37,839 nucleotides of DNA, from the IMG/VR virus record IMGVR_UViG_3300045988_092680; one strand, written 5' to 3'. The position numbers and the translations under genes were made by a program. Positions 1 through 37,839 of this stretch are shown piece by piece. Numbering within the stretch: the first letter of the stretch is position 1; each line of letters begins with the position of its first letter. This DNA is from a virus. The notes under the pieces are model-generated. The model did not search any database. It had not been told where the DNA came from and worked only from the letters and a program-made list of their open reading frames with translations.

Positions 1-119
1 CTTTTTTTTGCATTAAGGAGGCGTTGCGTATGAAAGCAGATGTTATATGAATGTAGATAGATATATTAAGCAGTTGTTTATTAGTCTGTCAGAGTATAGC
101 CAATACTATGACATTACAA
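1..119. repeat. Terminal direct repeat, identical to 37721..37839 (circular-assembly overlap or terminal redundancy)
   Basis: Read directly: cttttttttgcattaaggaggcgttgcgtatgaaag...acattacaa present at both ends. Confidence 0.95.
30..50 (+). other. 6-codon leader mini-ORF (MKADVI*) with strong SD, ATGA-overlapped with the 47..316 ORF
   Basis: AAGGAGG at 15-21, ATG at 30, TGA at 48-50 overlapping ATG at 47; the downstream ORF has no SD of its own. Confidence 0.3.
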
Positions 120-18549: not shown

Positions 18550-20310
18550 ATGGCACAAATAATTAGAACTCGTAGAGATATAAAAACGAACTGGGAAACT
18601 GAAAACCCAGTTCTAGCTCTAGGAGAACAAGGCTACGAAACTGATACAGGAAAATTAAAATTTGGCGACGGTAATACTAGCTGGAATAACCTACCATATT
18701 TTAGAGGAGCTTTAACAGAAGAATTAGAAGAAAAATTAGATTCTGTACCAACTCCTAGTAATATAGTAGTAATAGAAAATATATCAAGCTTGTTTAAGTC
18801 TGTTTCATATAACAGTGCTAACGGAGTTTTGACTTTTACACAATATAATGATACAATAGTTACTGTCGATTTGCCACTAGAGTTAATAGTTAGTAGCGGA
18901 CATTATGATAGCGATACTAAGAGTATTATACTCGTTCTCGCTAATCAAGAAACTATCACTATTCCTGTTAGTGATCTAGTTAATGAGTATTATGCTGATA
19001 ACACTACGTTAGAATTAAAACAAGTCAACGGAAAGTTGACTTTTAATGTAAAAGACGGTGTTTTTGTAAAAGCTCAAACTGGTAAAGGATTATCGACTAA
19101 TGATTATTCAACTTTGGAAAAAAATAAGTTAGCTGGAATAGCATCAGGAGCACAAGTTAATAAGGTTGAAAAAATACTTATTAACGGTGTGGAACAATCT
19201 ATAACAGATAAAACAGTAAATCTCGAAGTGAAAACAACCTCAAATAAGATATACGGTATAAAAAGATCGTTATCTTCTAATACATCTTCAGCTTGGGAAA
19301 GAACAGACGATTCAGTTGGATTGGTAGCTAATGCAACTAAAGACGGTAGTTCTGTTGTTAATAATTTTGATAGTATCTACCCTTGGTCTGATATTATTAC
19401 ATACAATTATGATACTCAAGCTAAAGCAATAACCGCTTATTATGGAGAACCTACTTTTAAGTTTGACGGTTCTAATGGCGAAGTATTAACTAGAATACCA
19501 GAATTTTATTATAAGAGATATGTTTCTAACAACGTAGAATATATTCTCATTTCGAGAGAAAAACACGACGGATTCATTAAAAGCGAACAATTTAGTGTTG
19601 GACGTTATACTTATTCAGGTTCAGCCTCAAGAGTGTATAGCCGAAGTGGTTATGAGCCATTTAGAAATTATAATATAACCAATGCTAGAGCTTATGCTAG
19701 GGCTTTAGGAGACGGATTCGGACAACTAGATTGGCATTATTTAATTATTCAGATGTTATATTTGGTAGAGTATGCTAATTATAATTGTCAATCTATGTTA
19801 GGACAAGGTCGTGTTTCAAGTAGTACACCTAACAACAGTGGCGGTTGTGATACCCTAGGTATGAAATCTGGTTGCTTGGGTAATGACGGAACATATTCTG
19901 TAATATATAGAGGTATTGAGGATCCTTACGGAAATATTTGGCAATTTATAGACGGTATAAATGTAAAAGATCACGTTCCGTATGTATGTTATGATTCTAG
20001 TAAGTACGCTGTTGACACATTTGACGGAGCTTATCACGTATTAAATTTCACAATGCCGTCAGCTAATGGCTATGCTTCTAAATTGGGTTATGATTCAAAT
20101 AATCCCCTTATGTCTTTAACAACTGAAGCTTCTGGTAGTTCTACTACTAATATGTGTGATTATTACTATCAGAATGACGGGAATCGTATCGCTCTTGTCG
20201 GCGGTCGTTTTGATTATGGTAGTGCTGCTGGGTTGTGGTTTTGGACTTTTGACAATACTTCGTCTAATACTTATACTTCGTACGGTGCTCGACTTCTTAG
20301 AAACCAGTAA
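18550..20310 (+). CDS. Tail fibre / receptor-binding protein, DGR target (Mtd_N-like N-terminus, C-type-lectin/FGE-like variable tip)
   Basis: N-terminus RRDIKTNWETENPVLALGEQGYETDTGKLKFGDGNTSWNNLPYF; C-terminus ALVGGRFDYGSAAGLWFWTFDNTSSNTYTSYGARLLRNQ*. Confidence 0.85.
   Translation: MAQIIRTRRDIKTNWETENPVLALGEQGYETDTGKLKFGDGNTSWNNLPYFRGALTEELEEKLDSVPTPSNIVVIENISSLFKSVSYNSANGVLTFTQYNDTIVTVDLPLELIVSSGHYDSDTKSIILVLANQETITIPVSDLVNEYYADNTTLELKQVNGKLTFNVKDGVFVKAQTGKGLSTNDYSTLEKNKLAGIASGAQVNKVEKILINGVEQSITDKTVNLEVKTTSNKIYGIKRSLSSNTSSAWERTDDSVGLVANATKDGSSVVNNFDSIYPWSDIITYNYDTQAKAITAYYGEPTFKFDGSNGEVLTRIPEFYYKRYVSNNVEYILISREKHDGFIKSEQFSVGRYTYSGSASRVYSRSGYEPFRNYNITNARAYARALGDGFGQLDWHYLIIQMLYLVEYANYNCQSMLGQGRVSSSTPNNSGGCDTLGMKSGCLGNDGTYSVIYRGIEDPYGNIWQFIDGINVKDHVPYVCYDSSKYAVDTFDGAYHVLNFTMPSANGYASKLGYDSNNPLMSLTTEASGSSTTNMCDYYYQNDGNRIALVGGRFDYGSAAGLWFWTFDNTSSNTYTSYGARLLRNQ
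20191..20298 (+). repeat. DGR variable region (VR0), in frame at the 3' end of the fibre gene
   Basis: Bounded by GCTCTTGTCGGCGGT and GGTGCTCGACTTCTT, blocks shared with four downstream cassettes; only 2 AAY codons. Confidence 0.8.
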
Positions 20311-20373
20311 GTGGGGGTTTGGGGGCGACCAGCCTCCCATAATAAAACTTCTTTTTTACCGACGAAAGTCGGT
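20311..20373 (+). promoter_or_regulatory. G-rich element plus two hairpins downstream of VR0 (IMH/target-recognition-like, or the fibre-gene terminator)
   Basis: gtgggggtttgggggcgaccagcctccca (GC-rich stem 20320-20339) and accgac-GAAA-gtcggt (20358-20373). Confidence 0.4.
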
Positions 20374-20432
20374 CGAGCTAAATTTATTTTTTGGGATTTG
20401 ATGTGGCGAGTACCGTTCGACTTTTAGCTTTC

Positions 20433-20543
20433 GCTCTTGTCGGCGGTGGTTATACTACCGACGCTGTACGTTGCGGGTTGTGGTGTTGGACTTTTGACAA
20501 TACTTCGTCTAATACATATACTTCGTACGGTGCTCGACTTCTT
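20433..20543 (+). repeat. Cassette C1: orphan VR-like copy (111 nt, one extra codon; VR-type 3' end CTTCTT)
   Basis: 3' 69 nt differ from VR0 at only 2 positions; 2 AAY codons; no credible gene context. Confidence 0.75.
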
Positions 20544-20596
20544 ATTTTTTCGGGGACTTGGTGTGGTTTGCACTTTCCTTTTGTTTGTGTTTCTTT

Positions 20597-20704
20597 GCTC
20601 TTGTCGGCGGTGCTTGGTCTAATGGTACGGAAGCTGGGTTGTGGTATTGGAACGTGAATGAAGCTTCGTCTAATGCGTGGACGAATGTCGGTGCTCGACT
20701 ACTT
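20597..20704 (+). repeat. Cassette C2: TR-like copy (5 AAY codons; 3' end CTACTT)
   Basis: Same conserved 5', central and 3' blocks; encodes ALVGGAWSNGTEAGLWYWNVNEASSNAWTNVGARLL in a frame with no start context. Confidence 0.7.
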
Positions 20705-20766
20705 ATATCATTTTATAAATATAGGGATTTGATGTGTTTGAGTGCGTGATTTGTGGCGTTTTTATT

Positions 20767-20874
20767 GCTCTTGTCGGCGGTCGTTTTGATAATGGTAGTA
20801 ATGCTGGGTTGTGGTATTGGAATTACAACAATGATTCGTCGTTGGCTAACACCACTGTCGGTGCTCGACCTCTT
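20767..20874 (+). repeat. Cassette C3: best template-repeat candidate for the 5' two-thirds of VR0 (6 AAY codons; 3' end CCTCTT)
   Basis: Cassette positions 1-66 versus VR0: 8 mismatches, 7 at C3 adenines. Confidence 0.7.
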
Positions 20875-20922
20875 ATTTTGGGATTTGGTGTGTTTTGTAC
20901 CGGCGTTTTCAGTGTTCGGCAG

Positions 20923-21030
20923 GCTCTTGTCGGCGGTAATTGGGGCAATACTACTCAAGCTGGGTTGTGGTATTGGAACTTCAATTGGTCTGGGACTGAT
21001 TACAACACTAATGTCGGTGCTCGACTACTT
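20923..21030 (+). repeat. Cassette C4: TR by position (~120 nt upstream of the RT start; 6 AAY codons; 3' end CTACTT)
   Basis: Same conserved blocks; followed by a ~120-nt spacer with hairpin ttgcc-cctt-ggcaa (21062-21075), then the RT. Confidence 0.65.
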
Positions 21031-21153
21031 ATATTTATAAATTACTTACACATCATTTTCCTTGCCCCTTGGCAAAAATTAGTCGCTCTGGGTTGGCTTA
21101 GTAGGTTAATTCTCGAAAAGTCGGCAGGCAAATATAAGAATATGGAGCCAGAA

Positions 21154-22218
21154 ATGAAAAGAAAAGGAAATATTTATAATGAAATATTAGAACTCAACAA
21201 TATTGAATCAGCAATATTTAAAGCTTCTGTTGGTAAGACGCACCGTAAGAGTGTTGAAAAAATACTAGACGCCCCTACGTATTACGCTATGCAAGTGCAA
21301 AAAATGTTATCAGATAGAAGCTATATTCCTAGTCCGTATATTGAAATGAAAATAAGAGACGGAGCTAGCAAAAAAGAAAGAATTGTATTTAAACCTAGGT
21401 TTTACCCAGATCAAATAATACACTGGGCTTTAATGAATAAAGTAGAACCACTTTTTAAAAGAGGTATGTACGAATTTTGCTGTGCTTCTATTAAAGGGCG
21501 TGGAATACAACGAGGAATGAATTATGTTAAAAGAATCCTAGTTAATGATAGAAAACATACTAAATATTGTTTAAAATTAGATATTAAAAAGTTTTACCCC
21601 AGTATAGATAAAGAAATACTAAAAAAGAAGTTTAGAAAAATAATCAAAGATAAAGATACATTATATTTAATGGATCTAATAGTAGATAGTTCTACAGAGG
21701 GTGTTCCAATAGGTAATTTTACTTCACAATGGTTTGCTAATTACTATTTACAAGATTTGGATCACTATATAAAAGAAGAATTAAAGGTTAAATACTATAT
21801 AAGATATATGGACGATATGGTATTATTCTCTAATAATAAAAAAGAACTACGTAAGTGCAAATATGCTATTGACGAGTTCTTAACACGAGAACATTTAAGG
21901 ATTAAGGAAAATTGGCAATTATTTAAAACTGATAGCCGTCCTATTGACTTTCTTGGTTATCGCTTTTACAGAGGTTATACTACATTACGAAGAAGTAATT
22001 TTTTAAGAATCAAAAGAAGAATCAAGAAAATATCAAAGAAAGAAGAACTTAATTTTAAAGACGCTTGTGCGATAATGAGTTATAATGGTTGGATTATACA
22101 TTCTGATTCATATAACTACACTCAAAAATATTTAAAGCCTTATGTTGATTTTAAAAAGGTTAAGGAGGTAATTAAAAATGAAAACAGAAAGCACAATAAA
22201 ACCGGAAATAAAATTTAG
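21154..22218 (+). CDS. DGR-type reverse transcriptase
   Basis: MKRKGNIYNEI... start with GGAG 6 nt upstream; motifs KPRFYPDQIIHWAL, LKLDIKKFYPSI, VPIGNFTSQWFANYYL, YIRYMDDMVLF, IDFLGYRF. The ORF is open from 20734, but that upstream part is cassette DNA. Confidence 0.9.
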   Translation: MKRKGNIYNEILELNNIESAIFKASVGKTHRKSVEKILDAPTYYAMQVQKMLSDRSYIPSPYIEMKIRDGASKKERIVFKPRFYPDQIIHWALMNKVEPLFKRGMYEFCCASIKGRGIQRGMNYVKRILVNDRKHTKYCLKLDIKKFYPSIDKEILKKKFRKIIKDKDTLYLMDLIVDSSTEGVPIGNFTSQWFANYYLQDLDHYIKEELKVKYYIRYMDDMVLFSNNKKELRKCKYAIDEFLTREHLRIKENWQLFKTDSRPIDFLGYRFYRGYTTLRRSNFLRIKRRIKKISKKEELNFKDACAIMSYNGWIIHSDSYNYTQKYLKPYVDFKKVKEVIKNENRKHNKTGNKI

Positions 22219-33582: not shown

Positions 33583-33856
33583 AGAATATTTGCAATTAGA
33601 TATATTCGGAGAAGCTAAACCCTTAAGTGAAGTAATTAGTAGCACAAAACCCTTATTGCACGGAGGCAGAATAACTAAAAAAAGTTTATTTAGAAGTATA
33701 AATGGTTATAAGAATGGATTTTATTGTAAAAATTGTAAGCATTTTAAAGAATTAAGATGTAATAGAAAGTATTTTAAGTGTGAGATTCTTGGAATAACAT
33801 CTTCTGAAGCTACTGATATAAGAAAGAATGATATAGCTTGTAATTTATATGAATGA
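33575..33856 (+). CDS. Cys-rich (zinc-ribbon-like) hypothetical protein (GTG start)
   Basis: CKNCKHFKELRCNRKYFKCE. Confidence 0.45.
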   Translation: MSKEYLQLDIFGEAKPLSEVISSTKPLLHGGRITKKSLFRSINGYKNGFYCKNCKHFKELRCNRKYFKCEILGITSSEATDIRKNDIACNLYE

Positions 33857-34385
33857 AATATGGAAAACGATTGATTATGACACACGTTATCAAGTGTCAA
33901 ATTGGGGAAGATTTAGAAAAAGGAATCTTAAAAATGGTTACAGATATTTAAAACCATTTAGAAAGAAAAATTTATTCCAGGTAAAAATCAAAGATAAAGA
34001 TTTTAATTGTGCTAGATTAGTTGCTAATGCTTTTATTCAACCTCTTACTACTAAAGATAGAGTTTATCATAAGAATAAAATTGTAAGTGATAATTATTAT
34101 AGAAATTTAGAGGTCATAGGATTACGAGAACTAGGAAAAAGAACAGGACACATATCTAAGTCTCAACGTGTGGTTGAAATTAAAGGTAATGAGATAGTAA
34201 GGGATTGGGCTTCAGCCAGAAAAGCTAGTAAAGATTTATTTATATCTTATCAAACAGTTATGGATTATTGTAATAAAAAAGTTAAAAAACCTATGTATAA
34301 CTTGATGTGGGAAGAAGATTATTTTGATATAGTCTTGGAACCATTTAGTTGGGAACATAAAAAAAATAAAAAATTGGAGGATTAA
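33849..34385 (+). CDS. NUMOD4 / HNH_3-type homing-endonuclease-like protein
   Basis: EIWKTIDYDTRYQVSNWGRFRK (NUMOD4-like) and VYHKNKIVSDNYYRNLEVI. Confidence 0.6.
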   Translation: MNEIWKTIDYDTRYQVSNWGRFRKRNLKNGYRYLKPFRKKNLFQVKIKDKDFNCARLVANAFIQPLTTKDRVYHKNKIVSDNYYRNLEVIGLRELGKRTGHISKSQRVVEIKGNEIVRDWASARKASKDLFISYQTVMDYCNKKVKKPMYNLMWEEDYFDIVLEPFSWEHKKNKKLED

Positions 34386-36195: not shown

Positions 36196-36666
36196 ATGGA
36201 AAACTATTATAAGTTAGTAGCCGACTTACAATGTGCTTACCAACGATTAAGATCATTACAAGAAAGACAGGAAGCTATATTTGATAGATACTTCCCTGTA
36301 ACTGTCAAGTACAAACCAATCTCCTCCACTGGCGGAGAGTCAAAAGATAAAATGTTGGGTTATTTAGAAGAATTAGAAGAATCTGGAATCGCAAAAGATT
36401 TGGAGGAAGCTATAAAAAATGTTAATTCTATTCAGCACAGAGTAGCTAATATGGAAATAATCTTACGTGGTGTAGAAAATATAACAGGTAATGATAGTTT
36501 AGAGTTTAAAGTTATGAATCTTAAGTATTATGAAAATCGTAGCTATACCCTACAACAAATAGCTGATAGATTGCATTATTCAATAGATCGAGTTAAGCAA
36601 GTAAGTGCTGAAATAGAAAGAAAATTAAAAGATAATTATTACACTAAAAATACACTTCAAAAGTGA
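36196..36666 (+). CDS. ArpU/RinA-like late transcriptional regulator (sigma region-4-like HTH)
   Basis: YTLQQIADRLHYSIDRVKQVSAEIERKL; last gene before the packaging module. Confidence 0.6.
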   Translation: MENYYKLVADLQCAYQRLRSLQERQEAIFDRYFPVTVKYKPISSTGGESKDKMLGYLEELEESGIAKDLEEAIKNVNSIQHRVANMEIILRGVENITGNDSLEFKVMNLKYYENRSYTLQQIADRLHYSIDRVKQVSAEIERKLKDNYYTKNTLQK

Positions 36667-36739
36667 TAAAATGGTAATGTGGAATAATTAAAGACGGCTT
36701 GTAGAGTGCCCCTGATTAAAGAGAACTCTACTTTATATC

Positions 36740-36807
36740 TCGGTAGCGGTGTGATAGTCGCACGCAGGTTCCATATTCCTGAGGAGAGGTGCAATTCCTA
36801 CTACCGA
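36740..36807 (+). ncRNA. tRNA-like module 1 (CAU anticodon-like loop, truncated T arm)
   Basis: Acceptor tcggtag/ctaccga, D arm gtgt-gatagtc-gcac, anticodon arm caggt-tccatat-tcctg, T-loop-like ggTGCAATTcc. Confidence 0.4.
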
Positions 36808-37129
36808 AACCATTGATTTATATAGTGAGCCGATCACTCACGTTAATATAAATAAGTTTTTACTAATTTTGACTTGGCTAGAGCAAGCTTACGAATAAGA
36901 ATTAGGGTGGAAATTACTTTGCTACCTTAAGGTAAAGGTGCGTTGATATTTCAAGCGTAAAAATATCTGTATCTATTGCAAACAATAGAAGCTCAATTTA
37001 TGCTGATGTGGTGGAAAAGAGACACGCCAGAAATGGTGGGTATTCCGAAAGGAACCCGTGGGAGGTTATAACTCTCTATCAGCTCCAATATGCTATTATT
37101 CAATGTTGTATAGATAGACCTAAGATGTC

Positions 37130-37148
37130 TAAGGGTGCGAATCCCTTA
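37130..37148 (+). other. T-loop-like hairpin taaggg-TGCGAAT-ccctta
   Basis: Perfect 6-bp stem; loop resembles the tRNA T loop; enclosed by ccta(a)ga / tctagg. Confidence 0.45.
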
Positions 37149-37431
37149 TCACTTCCTTTCTAGGCTCTGGCTTATCGGCTTTATAATTGATAAGATACGT
37201 TGTGTTAGTCGCCTTACATAAACCTTTGGAGGACAAGAATCATTTCCGTAAGAATCTTTATCTTGAATTTTCCATTCAATCCGTAGAAATGTAAAACCGT
37301 AGCAACGTATTCTCTTGAACGAACAAGGATTCAAGTTGGTTATGACAAACATACGCTAAACTATTAGTCGTAATTCTATGTAAGTATTCGTAGTGGAATA
37401 CCAAGGTTATTGCATAGAGAAATAGTAAATA

Positions 37432-37518
37432 TAGGTAGTAATCTAAGGAGTAAGATTCCGCTGGGGAGTAGGAAACGAAAGCCAGGGGCTATATACGGTG
37501 CAATTCCGTATCTACCTA
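37432..37518 (+). ncRNA. tRNA-like module 2 (acceptor, D and T arms present; oversized central arm)
   Basis: taggtag/ctaccta, atct-aaggagta-agat, atacgg-TGCAATT-ccgtat; the 35-nt central arm is not a canonical anticodon arm. Confidence 0.35.
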
Positions 37519-37522
37519 CCAC

Positions 37523-37560
37523 GCTAGTATCACACTAGCCAACCCCTTTTTATTCTTTTT
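37523..37560 (+). terminator. Hairpin plus T-rich tract (possible 3' end of the ncRNA)
   Basis: gctagt-atcac-actagc followed by caacccctttttattcttttt. Confidence 0.4.
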
Positions 37561-37695
37561 AGATAAAGCACTACTCTAATAGGTAGTGTACTGATGATAT
37601 GTGAAAGGTTGCGGACGTTATCATAAAGACCTAGTATATCGTTAGTACAGTATCTGTTAAAGGGTACTACTCCTCTATCAAGTAGAGAACTGTAA

Positions 37696-37729
37696 GACAT
37701 TACATTCCAGAGCGTGATGTCTTTTTTTT
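37696..37729 (+). terminator. Rho-independent terminator spanning the circular junction
   Basis: gacattac-(10 nt)-gtgatgtc (one G-U pair) followed by eight T. Confidence 0.6.
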
Positions 37730-37839
37730 GCATTAAGGAGGCGTTGCGTATGAAAGCAGATGTTATATGAATGTAGATAGATATATTAAGCAGTTGTTTA
37801 TTAGTCTGTCAGAGTATAGCCAATACTATGACATTACAA
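37721..37839. repeat. Second copy of the terminal direct repeat (same as 1..119)
   Basis: Exact identity read directly. Confidence 0.95.

What the first reader, a model, noticed from the sequence alone, without database searches (positions are those of the whole stretch)
36667..37720. About 1 kb ORF-free, GC-enriched, helix-dense region between the late regulator and terS: candidate giant structured RNA
Seen in sequence: genes elsewhere in this genome are packed with overlaps of a few nucleotides. Yet 36667..37720 has no + strand ORF in the track, and only two 67-aa antisense ORFs that lack SD sequences. Composition changes visibly. The 60-nt line starting at 37441 is 30/60 G+C, against 12/60 for the coding line starting at 34381. 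The region is full of perfect short helices:
- gtagagt/actctac, 36701-36731
- ctattg-caaa-caatag, 36973-36988
- ggg(ta)ttcc-GAAA-ggaaccc, 37038-37057
- cttatc/gataag, 37171-37194
- cttgaa/ttcaag, 37314-37335
- cactac/gtagtg, 37569-37588
It also holds the tRNA-like modules described separately. It is bracketed by a possible extended -10 (TGATAAAAT, 36664-36672) and by terminators at 37523-37560 and 37696-37729. Established knowledge: long GC-rich intergenic regions in AT-rich genomes are a classic signature of structured ncRNAs. The very large GOLLD and ROOL RNAs are typically found in phages or prophages of Firmicutes, often beside or containing tRNA-like sequences, and their function is still unknown. 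Inference: this is a GOLLD/ROOL-class RNA or a new large phage RNA, positioned to be made with, or just before, the late packaging operon. Part of it may also contain the cos/pac site.
Basis: partly seen in the sequence, partly recalled or inferred. Interest (0 to 1): 0.85.

Follow-up and report, generated by a model that had tools for sequence, protein, structure and literature searches.

The report
Phage operon of tRNA-like RNAs
The 1-kb gene-free stretch in front of this gut prophage's DNA-packaging genes is a real, conserved, folded-RNA locus. It is a string of independent tRNA-shaped modules plus one new RNA domain, not a single giant GOLLD/ROOL-type RNA.

Summary
**Observation: confirmed.**
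- 36667-37720 has no plausible ORF in any frame, under any single stop-codon reassignment.
- It is G+C-enriched (0.38 against 0.313).
- It lies in the same slot, between the regulator and terS, in about 45 distinct relatives.
- Four modules show strong compensatory base-pair changes. 98-100% of cells are paired, and 0 of 500 shuffles reach the covariation score.
- 109 G·U against 4 A·C cells point to a + strand RNA.

**Interpretation: only partly right.**
- Rfam finds no GOLLD, ROOL or any other family, in the window or in relatives.
- The region is a chain of locally folding modules: P1 hairpin; M1, an irregular tRNA(CAU)-like cloverleaf ending AACCA; M2, a five-arm cloverleaf ending TCCA; M3; M4, a new three-helix domain; M5, a cloverleaf without an anticodon loop; M6, an invariant 38-nt island; M7; and an intrinsic terminator.
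- Modules come and go independently, even among nearly identical phages.
- The M5 slot holds genuine tRNA-Ile genes in two relatives, 5-6 nt after M4.
- No long-range helix is supported.

**Best reading.** A conserved TGnTAAAAT promoter drives a polycistronic precursor of irregular tRNAs and tRNA mimics, which host tRNA-maturation enzymes cut up. What the products do is unknown.

The parts
36664..36672 (+). Extended -10 promoter-like element TGATAAAAT. It overlaps the regulator's stop codon. The predicted transcription start is about 36679.
   Evidence: TGnTAAAAT is present in all 47 distinct homologous sequences. TG and TAAAAT are invariant and n varies. Promoter function is inferred, not shown.
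36633..36690 (.). Inverted repeat TAATTATTACAC / GTGGAATAATTA bracketing the promoter element.
   Evidence: 11 of 12 positions are complementary. Both arms are nearly invariant in relatives. Its role is unknown.
36701..36731 (+). P1 leader hairpin: 7-bp stem, and a loop with conserved UUGCC.
   Evidence: 4 of 7 pairs show compensatory changes and 100% of cells are paired.
36739..36812 (+). M1, an irregular tRNA(CAU)-like cloverleaf present in every relative. It has 7 Watson-Crick acceptor pairs plus an invariant C·A end pair, a 4-pair T stem, the invariant loop UUCCAUAUU, and the 3' tail A-CCA.
   Evidence: RNAalifold gives a cloverleaf with compensatory changes in the acceptor and anticodon stems. 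ARAGORN calls it tRNA-Met(cat) only at a relaxed threshold. The L039 homologue scores 18.6 bits on Rfam tRNA, against a cut-off of 29. It is present in all loci.
36813..36995 (+). I1, an optional insert with hairpins, including 36973-36988.
   Evidence: It is present only in the window lineage, the L009 lineage and the recombinant L037. It is absent from most relatives and from the near-identical L059.
37002..37087 (+). M2, a five-arm cloverleaf tRNA mimic. It has a 7-bp acceptor stem, a D arm, a mini 'anticodon' arm capped by GAAA, a long variable arm (37038-37057), a 5-bp T stem, and the tail TCCA.
   Evidence: 8 of 24 pairs are compensatory and every helix except the invariant T stem has at least one. 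98.4% of cells are paired and 0 of 500 shuffles reach the score.
37088..37200 (+). M3. It comprises hairpin 37117-37129, T-arm-like hairpin 37130-37148, the conserved UCCUUUCU at 37154-37161, hairpin 37171-37194, and the 5' arm of helix Px (37195-37200).
   Evidence: The T-arm-like hairpin covaries (UAAGGG/CCCUUA against GUAAGG/CCUUAC). The other elements are conserved.
37201..37304 (+). I2, an optional insert in the loop of helix Px (37195-37200 pairs with 37305-37310).
   Evidence: It is full length only in the window lineage and in L037 and L059, shortened in the L001 group, and absent elsewhere. Px covaries (ATACGT/ACGTAT against ACACGT/ACGTGT).
37314..37426 (+). M4, a new non-tRNA structured domain made of three helical elements, with conserved loops CGAACA and GUAAUGG.
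   Evidence: 15 of 36 pairs have changes on both sides. 99% of cells are paired and 0 of 500 shuffles reach the score. It has no Rfam match. It is present in nearly all relatives.
37432..37521 (+). M5, a cloverleaf tRNA mimic whose 'anticodon' arm carries a 19-nt loop. It occupies a hypervariable slot.
   Evidence: 7 of 22 pairs are compensatory. In relatives the slot holds an acceptor-plus-T-arm minihelix ending GCCA, a 149-nt composite that reaches the Rfam tRNA cut-off (35.3 bits), or genuine tRNA-Ile(TAT) and tRNA-Ile(GAT) genes.
37523..37560 (.). M6, an invariant 38-nt island: a GCTAGT/ACTAGC hairpin followed by CAACCCCTTTTTATTCTTTTT. Its function is open (pac-related site, regulator site or RNA 3' element).
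   Evidence: It is identical across lineages whose flanks differ. It is a weak terminator. The contig ends clustered here fit k-1 = 30 nt from known variant sites.
37561..37648 (+). M7, made of hairpin 37569-37588 and a variable domain closed by 37589-37594 / 37642-37647.
   Evidence: The closing stem covaries (GTAC../..GTAC against ACAC../..GTGT against ATGC../..GCAT). The inserts inside it vary.
37694..37729 (+). Intrinsic terminator (10-bp stem, 10-nt loop, U8) just upstream of the ribosome-binding site (37735-37741) of the packaging operon.
   Evidence: It is conserved in all relatives, with wobble positions that shift. The MFE fold of 37668-37732 that contains it gives -15.4 kcal/mol.

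Best explanation
The region is a phage operon of tRNA-derived structured RNAs, not a single giant RNA.

**Proposed mechanism.**
- A conserved extended -10 promoter (36664-36672) starts a + strand transcript of about 0.9-1.05 kb.
- The transcript folds as beads on a string: P1 leader hairpin; M1, an irregular tRNA(CAU)-like cloverleaf; M2 and M5, cloverleaf tRNA mimics that cannot decode; and the non-tRNA domains M3, M4 and M7.
- Host tRNA-maturation enzymes then cut the precursor into small stable RNAs. RNase P would cut at the 5' side of each cloverleaf. RNase Z or exonucleases, plus the CCA-adding enzyme, would finish the 3' side.
- On this model the 3' end of M4 is made by the RNase P cut in front of the next cloverleaf.
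- The terminator at 37694-37729 insulates the packaging operon from this transcription.

**Shown.** The region is non-coding. The module structures are supported by covariation, and the G·U excess points to the + strand. Modules are independent of one another. True tRNAs are embedded in the array in relatives.

**Inferred.** Promoter activity, processing of the transcript, and what the products do. My guess is that M1 acts as an unusual tRNA, and that M2 and M5 act as tRNA mimics or decoys, or simply as processing signals.
For: - **Non-coding.** No frame opens under any single stop reassignment.
- **Same slot everywhere.** The region lies between the regulator and terS in loci fetched through DNA patterns and, independently, through protein homologues.
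- **Covariation.**

| Module | Pairs compensatory | Cells paired |
|---|---|---|
| P1 + M1 | 6 of 26 | 99.7% |
| M2 | 8 of 24 | 98.4% |
| M4 | 15 of 36 | 99.0% |
| M5 | 7 of 22 | 98.8% |

  In all four, 0 of 500 shuffles reach the covariation score, and slid registers collapse to 27-56% paired.
- **Strand.** 109 G·U cells against 4 A·C cells.
- **Shape.** RNAalifold returns cloverleaves for M1, M2 and M5. M2 ends TCCA. M1 and the window's M5 end CCA after an A. The minihelix variants end GCCA.
- **Real tRNAs in the array.** L018 has tRNA-Ile(TAT) and tRNA-Ile(GAT), and L048 has tRNA-Ile(TAT), by ARAGORN at default settings and by Rfam at 62-69 bits. They start 5-6 nt after M4, which leaves no room for a promoter of their own.
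- **Modularity.** L059 lacks I1, M2 and most of M3 but is otherwise about 100% identical to the window. L025 lacks M3 and M4. L029 lacks M2.
- **No long-range structure.** A global RNAalifold run gives only local domains.
- **Promoter.** The element is invariant in 47 of 47 sequences.
- **Precedent.** Polycistrons of irregular tRNAs, 8/4 structures and five-stem junctions have been described (PMC5389517).
Against: - There are no expression or processing data. Promoter use, transcript ends and RNase P cleavage are all inferred.
- None of M1, M2 or M5 passes a tRNA detector at its default threshold. At the relaxed ARAGORN settings that do call them, many false hits also appear.
- The CCA tail of M5 is not conserved outside the window lineage.
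- M4, M3 and M7 have no tRNA-like features and no proposed activity.
- In the window lineage nothing but the terminator separates this RNA from terS, so it could equally act as a leader of the late operon.
- The alignments hold only 11-14 distinct, related sequences. The shuffle controls therefore overstate significance.
Confidence: 0.6

Rival explanations
1. One integrated giant structured RNA, either GOLLD/ROOL-class or a new class. It would act as a single folded particle, and the tRNA-like parts would be structural domains of it.
For: - It is an ORF-free, G+C-enriched, helix-dense region of about 1 kb, in a prophage of an AT-rich Bacilli-like host, and it contains tRNA-like sequences. GOLLD and ROOL are likewise often found in prophages and near tRNAs (PMC5737381).
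- M1, M4 and M6 co-occur in nearly all relatives.
Against: - There is no hit to GOLLD, ROOL or any large-RNA family, even at E<=10, in the window or in relatives.
- All helices with covariation are local. The only long-range helix predicted is 4 bp long and invariant.
- Modules are deleted or replaced individually among near-identical phages, and real tRNA genes can replace M5.
Confidence: 0.1
2. A long structured 5' leader of the late (packaging) operon. It would work in cis, through processive antitermination or processing-dependent stabilisation, so that the late regulator controls read-through of the terminator at 37694-37729 into terS and terL.
For: - It is on the same strand as terS and immediately upstream of it.
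- The terminator is conserved in every relative and lies only about 5 nt before the ribosome-binding site. That leaves no room for a promoter between the two.
- In the window lineage no other promoter-like element lies between 36672 and terS.
- The upstream gene has a sigma-70 region 4 domain.
Against: - In nearly all relatives a 67-72 aa gene with its own TGnTATAAT-like element lies between the RNA array and the terminator. The array is therefore not adjacent to the terminator there.
- The module content is highly variable, which is unexpected for a cis-regulatory leader.
- Embedded true tRNAs point to trans-acting products.
Confidence: 0.15
3. A DNA-level packaging region (cos or pac with accessory terminase-binding sites). 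The conservation would reflect protein-DNA recognition rather than RNA.
For: - The position, just upstream of terS, is typical for cos and for SPP1-type pac sites (own knowledge).
- M6 is an invariant 38-nt island amid variable flanks.
- Sixteen independent Logan contigs end or start inside it.
Against: - The helices keep pairing through compensatory changes, with 109 G·U against 4 A·C cells. That fits RNA, not duplex DNA.
- The contig ends fall exactly 30 nt from known variant sites on either side of M6, as expected from k=31 graph breaks. The ragged starts ATCAC, TCAC, CACAC and ACAC each match a known branch point.
- TerL belongs to the PBSX family and the portal is SPP1-type, which favours headful packaging without fixed ends.
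- At most M6 and M7 could be a pac element. The 850 nt upstream of them could not.
Confidence: 0.05
4. Decaying remains of a phage tRNA gene cluster (pseudogenes) with no present function.
For: - The modules look tRNA-derived but fail tRNA detectors.
- Deletions and chimeras occur, such as the M1/M2 fusion in L072.
- Module content is variable.
Against: - Pairing is maintained by compensatory substitutions in every module tested.
- Loops such as UUCCAUAUU are invariant across regulators that have diverged to 58% identity.
- M1 is universal.
- The locus persists in a very common prophage. Its terS is found in 1544 blocks of the collection.
Confidence: 0.05

Closest known systems
Polycistrons of irregular tRNAs and allo-tRNA-like RNAs (Mukai et al. 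2017, PMC5389517)
   Same: - Several non-canonical cloverleaves are encoded head to tail.
- Acceptor/T-stem geometry is unusual. M1 can be read as 8/4 with 12 layers.
- Five-stem junctions occur, as in M2.
- Some members are probably not used in translation.
- 8/4 tRNAs have been reported in phages and in rumen bacteria.
   Different: - There the carriers are mostly Acidobacteria, and the loci lie near toxin-antitoxin systems. Here the carrier is a gut Bacilli-type prophage, and the locus sits between the late regulator and terS.
- There is no sequence relationship.
- M2 and M5 have no anticodon loop at all.
- The array also contains a non-tRNA domain (M4).
Phage tRNA gene clusters, including the phage T4 tRNA region with its two co-transcribed small stable RNAs (species 1 and 2; own knowledge, not checked here)
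   Same: - tRNAs and small non-tRNA RNAs are made from one precursor and released by RNase P and 3' processing.
- Relatives of this phage carry genuine tRNA-Ile genes in the same array.
   Different: - The window itself has no canonical tRNA.
- The cloverleaves are non-decoding or irregular.
- The position next to the packaging genes, and the cassette-like turnover of modules, are not features of the T4 cluster.
GOLLD (RF01998) and ROOL (RF03087) large RNAs
   Same: It is a large ORF-free structured locus in a prophage of a Firmicutes-type host, associated with tRNAs (PMC5737381).
   Different: - There is no covariance-model match at any threshold tried.
- There is no conserved multi-junction core or long-range helices.
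- The composition is modular and variable.
tRNA-like processing signals: plant mitochondrial t-elements (PMC1920247, title and abstract only) and the MALAT1 mascRNA (own knowledge)
   Same: A tRNA-shaped element placed next to another RNA serves as an RNase P/Z site that defines that RNA's end. This is what I propose for the M4-M5 junction.
   Different: - Those are eukaryotic or organellar systems.
- Here the idea is an inference from gene spacing alone. The tRNA-Ile genes start 5-6 nt after M4 in L048 and L018.

Membership tests
GOLLD RNA (Rfam RF01998) | A match to the family covariance model | tested here: not met
   There is no hit at gathering score on the whole window or on 7 related loci. 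There is none at E<=10 on window 36500-37839, L048 or L039.
ROOL RNA (Rfam RF03087) | A match to the family covariance model. [quoted passage not shown] | tested here: not met
   The cmscan results are the same. The consensus fold of the region contains only local domains.
Canonical tRNA (Rfam RF00005 / ARAGORN) | A score above the detector's threshold | tested here: not met
   - ARAGORN at default settings finds 0 tRNAs in the window.
- The window modules give no RF00005 hit at E<=10.
- M1 of L039 scores 18.6 bits, below the cut-off of 29.
- M1 is called tRNA-Met(cat) only at -ps80, and M2 and M5 only at -ps70.
Canonical tRNA | A cloverleaf with an acceptor stem, D arm, anticodon arm and T arm, kept by covariation | tested here: met
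   M1, M2 and M5 fold as cloverleaves in RNAalifold, with compensatory changes in their arms.
Canonical tRNA | A 7-nt anticodon loop with U33, and a 7/5 acceptor/T-stem branch | tested here: not met
   - M1 has the loop UCCAUAU with C at position 33, closed by a U·U pair, and a 7(+C·A)/4 branch.
- In M2 the arm is capped by a GAAA tetraloop.
- M5 has a 19-nt loop and a 7/6 branch.
Irregular 8/4 tRNAs (Mukai 2017) | A 12-layer acceptor branch made of an 8-pair acceptor stem and a 4-pair T stem | tested here: inconclusive
   - M1 has 7 Watson-Crick pairs plus an invariant C·A end pair, and a T stem of 4 pairs.
- The outer T-stem pair is U-A in half of the lineages and G·A in the rest.
- This geometry is read from the alignment. 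It has not been tested biochemically.
Intrinsic (Rho-independent) terminator, 37694-37729 | A stable hairpin immediately followed by a U run | tested here: met
   It has a 10-bp stem and a U8 run, and the MFE fold of 37668-37732 that contains it gives -15.4 kcal/mol. It is conserved, with variation that keeps pairing. The simple scan missed it because its loop is 10 nt long.
Intrinsic terminator, 37523-37560 | A stable hairpin immediately followed by a U run | tested here: not met
   The stem is 6 bp and A/U-rich (-6.8 kcal/mol), and 7 nt separate it from the U run. The scan did not call it.
cos site (fixed genome end) | Independent sequence ends at one position that assembly cannot explain | tested here: inconclusive
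   - 7 contigs end at 37551 and 9 contigs start at 37529-37532.
- The positions equal k-1 = 30 nt from variant sites for Logan's k=31, so they are most simply assembly breaks.
- One contig (L044) is not explained by any variant I hold.
Extended -10 promoter, 36664-36672 | TGn followed by a TATAAT-like hexamer, conserved and used for initiation | tested here: inconclusive
   The sequence feature is met and invariant in 47 of 47 sequences. The consensus scan does not list it because there is no -35 match. Initiation cannot be tested with these tools.

The most novel reading that the evidence does not exclude
A very common human-gut prophage carries a dedicated, fast-evolving cassette of tRNA mimics.
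- M1 would be a working non-canonical tRNA(CAU) of the 8/4 type. Its C1·A72 end pair is reminiscent of initiator tRNA. Alternatively it could be a tRNA-Ile2-like decoder for the phage's abundant AUA codons, which make up 44% of its Ile codons.
- M2, M5 and the minihelices carry CCA but cannot decode. They would act as decoys or sponges for host factors that target tRNA: anticodon nucleases, toxins that modify the acceptor end, or tRNA-modifying enzymes.
- The rapid swapping of modules would then be the footprint of an arms race.
Probability: 0.15. Interest if true: 0.8.

Novelty: new variant of a known kind. Interest (0 to 1): 0.55.

Why it matters
- **Prevalence.** The phage is widespread. 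Its exact terS protein occurs in 1544 blocks of the public assembly collection, on contigs of up to 655 kb, many of them ENA metagenome assemblies. Yet this 1-kb locus matches no Rfam family.
- **New RNA designs.** It adds several covariation-supported designs: a five-arm cloverleaf without an anticodon, a cloverleaf with an expanded loop, an irregular tRNA(CAU), and a new domain of about 115 nt (M4).
- **Evolution of tRNA genes.** These designs can be seen arising from ordinary tRNA genes within one phage clade. Relatives hold tRNA-Ile(TAT) in the same slot, and the 3' end of M5 resembles that tRNA.
- **A testable question.** If the products are tRNA mimics that act on host tRNA biology or defence, this would be a compact natural system for studying them. 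If they are only processing signals, the locus is still a clear bacterial example of tRNA-like punctuation.
- **A caution for large-RNA hunting.** A long, G+C-rich, helix-dense intergenic region in a prophage is not necessarily one giant RNA.

Tried and rejected
- **Known RNA families.** Rfam gave nothing relevant in the region at gathering score or at E<=10. The only hits were noise (HPnc0580 at 24 bits, plant miRNAs).
- **Phage record BLASTN.** A distant-mode search of the region against 50,697 phage records gave no match.
- **Coding under another genetic code.** Rejected. All three stop codons are frequent in all six frames.
- **cos site from contig ends.** At first this looked strong, with 16 contigs ending within 23 nt. 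I rejected it as evidence once the ends proved to lie exactly 30 nt from variant sites on each side of M6, which is Logan's k=31.
- **Long-range pairing of the P1 loop (GCCCC) with M5 (GGGGC).** One compensatory change between the window and L007 looked promising (alignment). However, lineages that lack GGGC in M5 keep the P1 loop unchanged, so I dropped it.
- **Alternative helix 37145-37154 with 37185-37194.** RNAalifold predicted it, but it is broken in L018 and L022. The local hairpin 37171-37194 is preferred.
- **One wasted collection scan.** A mis-spaced M4 pattern found nothing. The corrected patterns for M4 and M6 found only the same six IMG/VR contigs. In IMG/VR, therefore, the locus is confined to this phage clade.
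- **L012, L024 and L030.** These were chance pattern matches. L012's match lies in a gene-dense stretch with no other similarity to the region, and L024 and L030 showed no BLASTN similarity to the region.
- **Single-sequence folding energy.** It does not discriminate: z = -1.6 on the + strand and -2.8 on the - strand.
Full report
**1. Setting**

The window is a circular phage genome. Bases 1-119 repeat 37721-37839, which is an assembly overlap.

The flagged region, 36667-37720, lies between two sets of genes:
- Upstream is a 156-aa protein with a sigma-70 region 4 domain (36196-36666; Pfam 25.5 bits, phrog_36 "transcriptional regulator").
- Downstream is the packaging module: ORF89, a terS-like gene, a PBSX-family TerL (TIGR01547), and an SPP1-type portal as annotated in close relatives.

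The phage also has a large serine recombinase, a NUMOD4/HNH endonuclease and a DGR. Its exact terS protein occurs in 1544 blocks of the public assembly collection. It is found inside contigs of up to 655 kb, many of them ENA metagenome assemblies, so this is a common prophage. MAGs that carry relatives are labelled uncultured Bacilli or "Mycoplasma".

**2.

No plausible ORF exists:
- The longest + strand ORF is 51 aa. The two 67-aa antisense ORFs are as described.
- Every frame is full of all three stop codons, so no alternative genetic code rescues a gene.

G+C is 0.38 against 0.313 for the genome, about 2 sd. The excess is concentrated in three modules: 0.53, 0.46 and 0.47.

Single-sequence folding energy is not unusual (z = -1.6). 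The case for structure therefore has to rest on comparative data.

**3. Relatives**

I retrieved the same intergenic slot by several independent routes:
- IMG/VR, by protein.
- GTDB genomes and JGI metagenomes, by a DNA pattern from module M1.
- Logan and ENA assemblies, through homologues of the regulator and of ORF89 down to 58% identity, a route that does not depend on the RNA.

This gave 47 distinct sequences. In all of them, 750-1400 nt without called genes follow the regulator. In most, a 67-72 aa gene, a terminator and then terS come next. That small gene is deleted in the window lineage.

**4. Anatomy (window coordinates)**

| Part | Coordinates | Description |
|---|---|---|
| Promoter-like element | 36664-36672 | TGATAAAAT. 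TGnTAAAAT is invariant in 47 of 47 sequences, with n free |
| P1 hairpin | 36701-36731 | 4 of 7 pairs compensatory |
| M1 | 36739-36812 | Cloverleaf with the invariant loop UUCCAUAUU (anticodon-like CAU). It has 7 Watson-Crick acceptor pairs plus an invariant C·A end pair, a 4-pair T stem and the tail A-CCA. It is present in every relative |
| I1 | 36813-36995 | Optional insert |
| M2 | 37002-37087 | Five-arm cloverleaf. The "anticodon" arm is a 3-bp stem capped by GAAA. It has a long variable arm and the tail TCCA. 8 of 24 pairs are compensatory, in every helix except the invariant T stem |
| M3 | 37088-37200 | Hairpins and a conserved UCCUUUCU |
| Px and I2 | 37195-37310 | Helix Px (37195-37200 / 37305-37310), whose loop holds the optional insert I2 |
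| M4 | 37314-37426 | Three helical elements with no tRNA resemblance and no Rfam match. 15 of 36 pairs have changes on both sides and 99% of cells are paired |
| M5 | 37432-37521 | Cloverleaf with a 19-nt loop in place of the anticodon loop. 7 of 22 pairs are compensatory |
| M6 | 37523-37560 | Invariant island |
| M7 | 37561-37648 | Hairpin and a variable domain closed by a covarying stem |
| Terminator | 37694-37729 | Intrinsic terminator, conserved |
| Ribosome-binding site | 37735-37741 | AAGGAGG in front of the packaging operon |

For the four tested alignments, 0 of 500 column shuffles reach the observed covariation score. Sliding the 3' partners by 1-3 columns drops pairing to 27-56%. 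The sequences are related and few (11-14 distinct), so these controls are indicative rather than probabilities.

Across the four structures there are 109 G·U cells and only 4 A·C cells. The pairing is therefore meaningful for a + strand RNA. It is not meaningful for the - strand or for duplex DNA.

**5. Not a single giant RNA**

- **No family match.** Rfam 15 gave no GOLLD, ROOL or other large-RNA hit. This holds at gathering score on the whole window and on seven relatives, and at E<=10 on the window region and two divergent relatives.
- **No long-range structure.** A global consensus fold of 14 sequences recovers only the local modules. The one long-range helix is 4 bp long and invariant.
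- **Modules are independent**:
  - L059 is about 100% identical to the window but lacks I1, M2 and most of M3.
  - L025 lacks M3 and M4, and L029 lacks M2.
  - L037 has a regulator only 59% identical, but RNA modules about 100% identical to the window's. This indicates recent recombination.
- **The slot after M4 is a cassette site**. It holds one of:
  - the window-type M5;
  - a bare acceptor-plus-T-arm minihelix ending GCCA;
  - a 149-nt composite that reaches the Rfam tRNA cut-off (35.3 bits);
  - genuine tRNA-Ile(TAT) and tRNA-Ile(GAT) genes in L018, or tRNA-Ile(TAT) in L048.

Those real tRNAs begin 5-6 nt after the last helix of M4. They must therefore be co-transcribed with it and released by RNase P. 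The 3' end of the window's M5 (..TACCTACCA) resembles that of the L048 tRNA-Ile, which suggests that M5 derives from such a gene.

**6. How it most likely works**

*Shown:* a conserved, + strand, modular set of RNA structures, three of them cloverleaves, in a slot that holds true tRNA genes in relatives.

*Inferred:*
- The TGnTAAAAT element drives a polycistronic precursor.
- RNase P, together with RNase Z or 3' exonucleases and the CCA-adding enzyme, dissects it at the cloverleaves.
- This releases M1, M2 and M5 as tRNA-sized RNAs and defines the ends of the M3-M4 RNA.
- The terminator at 37694-37729 shields the packaging operon from this transcription.

M1 is the only universal module and the closest to a tRNA. 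ARAGORN calls it tRNA-Met(cat) at 80% of its threshold, and the L039 copy scores 18.6 bits on RF00005. M1 can be read as an 8/4 tRNA with a C1·A72 end pair, A73 and CCA, a geometry described for irregular bacterial and phage tRNAs (PMC5389517). The phage uses AUA for 44% of its Ile codons, and relatives add tRNA-Ile(UAU). A translational role for M1 is therefore conceivable.

M2 and M5 have no anticodon loop and cannot decode. They are either tRNA mimics with a function of their own or simply processing signals. I cannot choose between these two options from sequence alone.

**7. M6 and the cos/pac idea**

Seven independent Logan contigs end at exactly 37551, and nine start at 37529-37532. This looked like a cos site with a 23-nt overhang. 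It is better explained as an assembly effect:
- The left ends lie exactly 30 nt after the variable base upstream of YGCTAGT.
- The four different start positions each lie exactly 30 nt before a known variant site in ATTCTTT[T/G][T/A].
- This is what k=31 graph breaks produce when strains that share M6 co-occur in a sample. One contig (L044) is not explained by any variant I hold.

TerL (PBSX family) and the SPP1-type portal also point to headful packaging rather than fixed ends.

M6 remains unexplained. It is invariant DNA amid variable flanks, a poor terminator, and specific to this clade. A pac-related site, a binding site for the regulator, or an RNA 3' element are all possible.

**8. Comparison with known systems, and novelty**

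- The closest described things are the polycistrons of irregular tRNAs of Mukai et al. (PMC5389517).
- Ordinary phage tRNA clusters that also encode small stable RNAs are the next closest. Phage T4 is the example I know of, but I did not check it here.
- The resemblance to GOLLD and ROOL is contextual only.
- The module designs (M2, M5, M4), the position next to the packaging genes and the cassette-like turnover are new.

I therefore rate this a new variant of a known kind. It is of moderate interest until expression and function are tested.

Noticed in passing
window 1-119 and 37721-37839: The first 119 bases repeat the last 119. This is the overlap left by assembling a circular molecule, and the unique length is 37720. 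It is not a biological terminal repeat as far as I can tell.
   Followed up: partly
window 18550-22218: A diversity-generating retroelement. It has an Mtd_N-domain target protein (18550-20310), a reverse transcriptase (20734-22218) and RT-18 RNA (RF03021, 60.9 bits, 21063-21138). There are five copies of a 113-nt repeat between 20187 and 21031, in the most G+C-rich part of the genome. Five repeat copies is more than the usual VR/TR pair.
   Followed up: partly
window ~37655-37668; e.g. L032:4946-5155, L036:4812-5015: Nearly all relatives carry a 67-72 aa gene of unknown function between M7 and the terminator, with its own TATGATAnnAT (extended -10-like) element. The window lineage has a clean deletion of the gene and of that element. 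The gene has no Pfam-precomputed or PHROG match.
   Followed up: partly
window 37735-37770: The strong AAGGAGG serves a 6-codon mini-ORF (ATG 37750, MKADVI*). Its TGA overlaps the ATG (37767) of ORF89. This suggests translational coupling into the packaging operon. The mini-ORF differs in frame and length in relatives.
   Followed up: no
window 36633-36644 and 36679-36690: A nearly invariant 12-nt inverted repeat brackets the extended -10 element and the predicted transcription start. It could be an operator, or a hairpin in read-through transcripts from the regulator gene.
   Followed up: no
L072 (ENA ERZ913627 scaffold_4557), region after the regulator: A deletion joins the anticodon loop of M1 to the D arm of M2, making a chimeric and probably defective cloverleaf. 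Recombination evidently happens between the tRNA-like modules.
   Followed up: no
L037:4100-4850 against window 36740-37520: The regulator protein is only 59% identical to the window's, yet the RNA modules, including both optional inserts, are about 100% identical. The RNA cassette has moved between diverged phages recently.
   Followed up: partly
Logan contigs L038, L043-L045, L048-L050, L063-L071, L079, L081: Many short-read assemblies break at the invariant M6 element, at positions that equal k-1 from variant sites. This implies that several variants of this phage commonly co-occur in one sample. It also shows that recurrent contig ends can mimic a cos site.
   Followed up: yes
window 37154-37161 (UCCUUUCU) and 37446-37451 (AAGGAG in the M5 D loop): A conserved pyrimidine tract in M3 resembles an anti-Shine-Dalgarno sequence, and an SD-like AAGGAG sits in a loop of M5. 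No covariation links the two, and their partners are unknown.
   Followed up: no
window 33849-34385: A NUMOD4/HNH endonuclease gene lies about 2.3 kb upstream of the region. HNH_5-domain genes occur at similar positions in relatives (L033, L034, L050). Its relevance to packaging was not examined.
   Followed up: no
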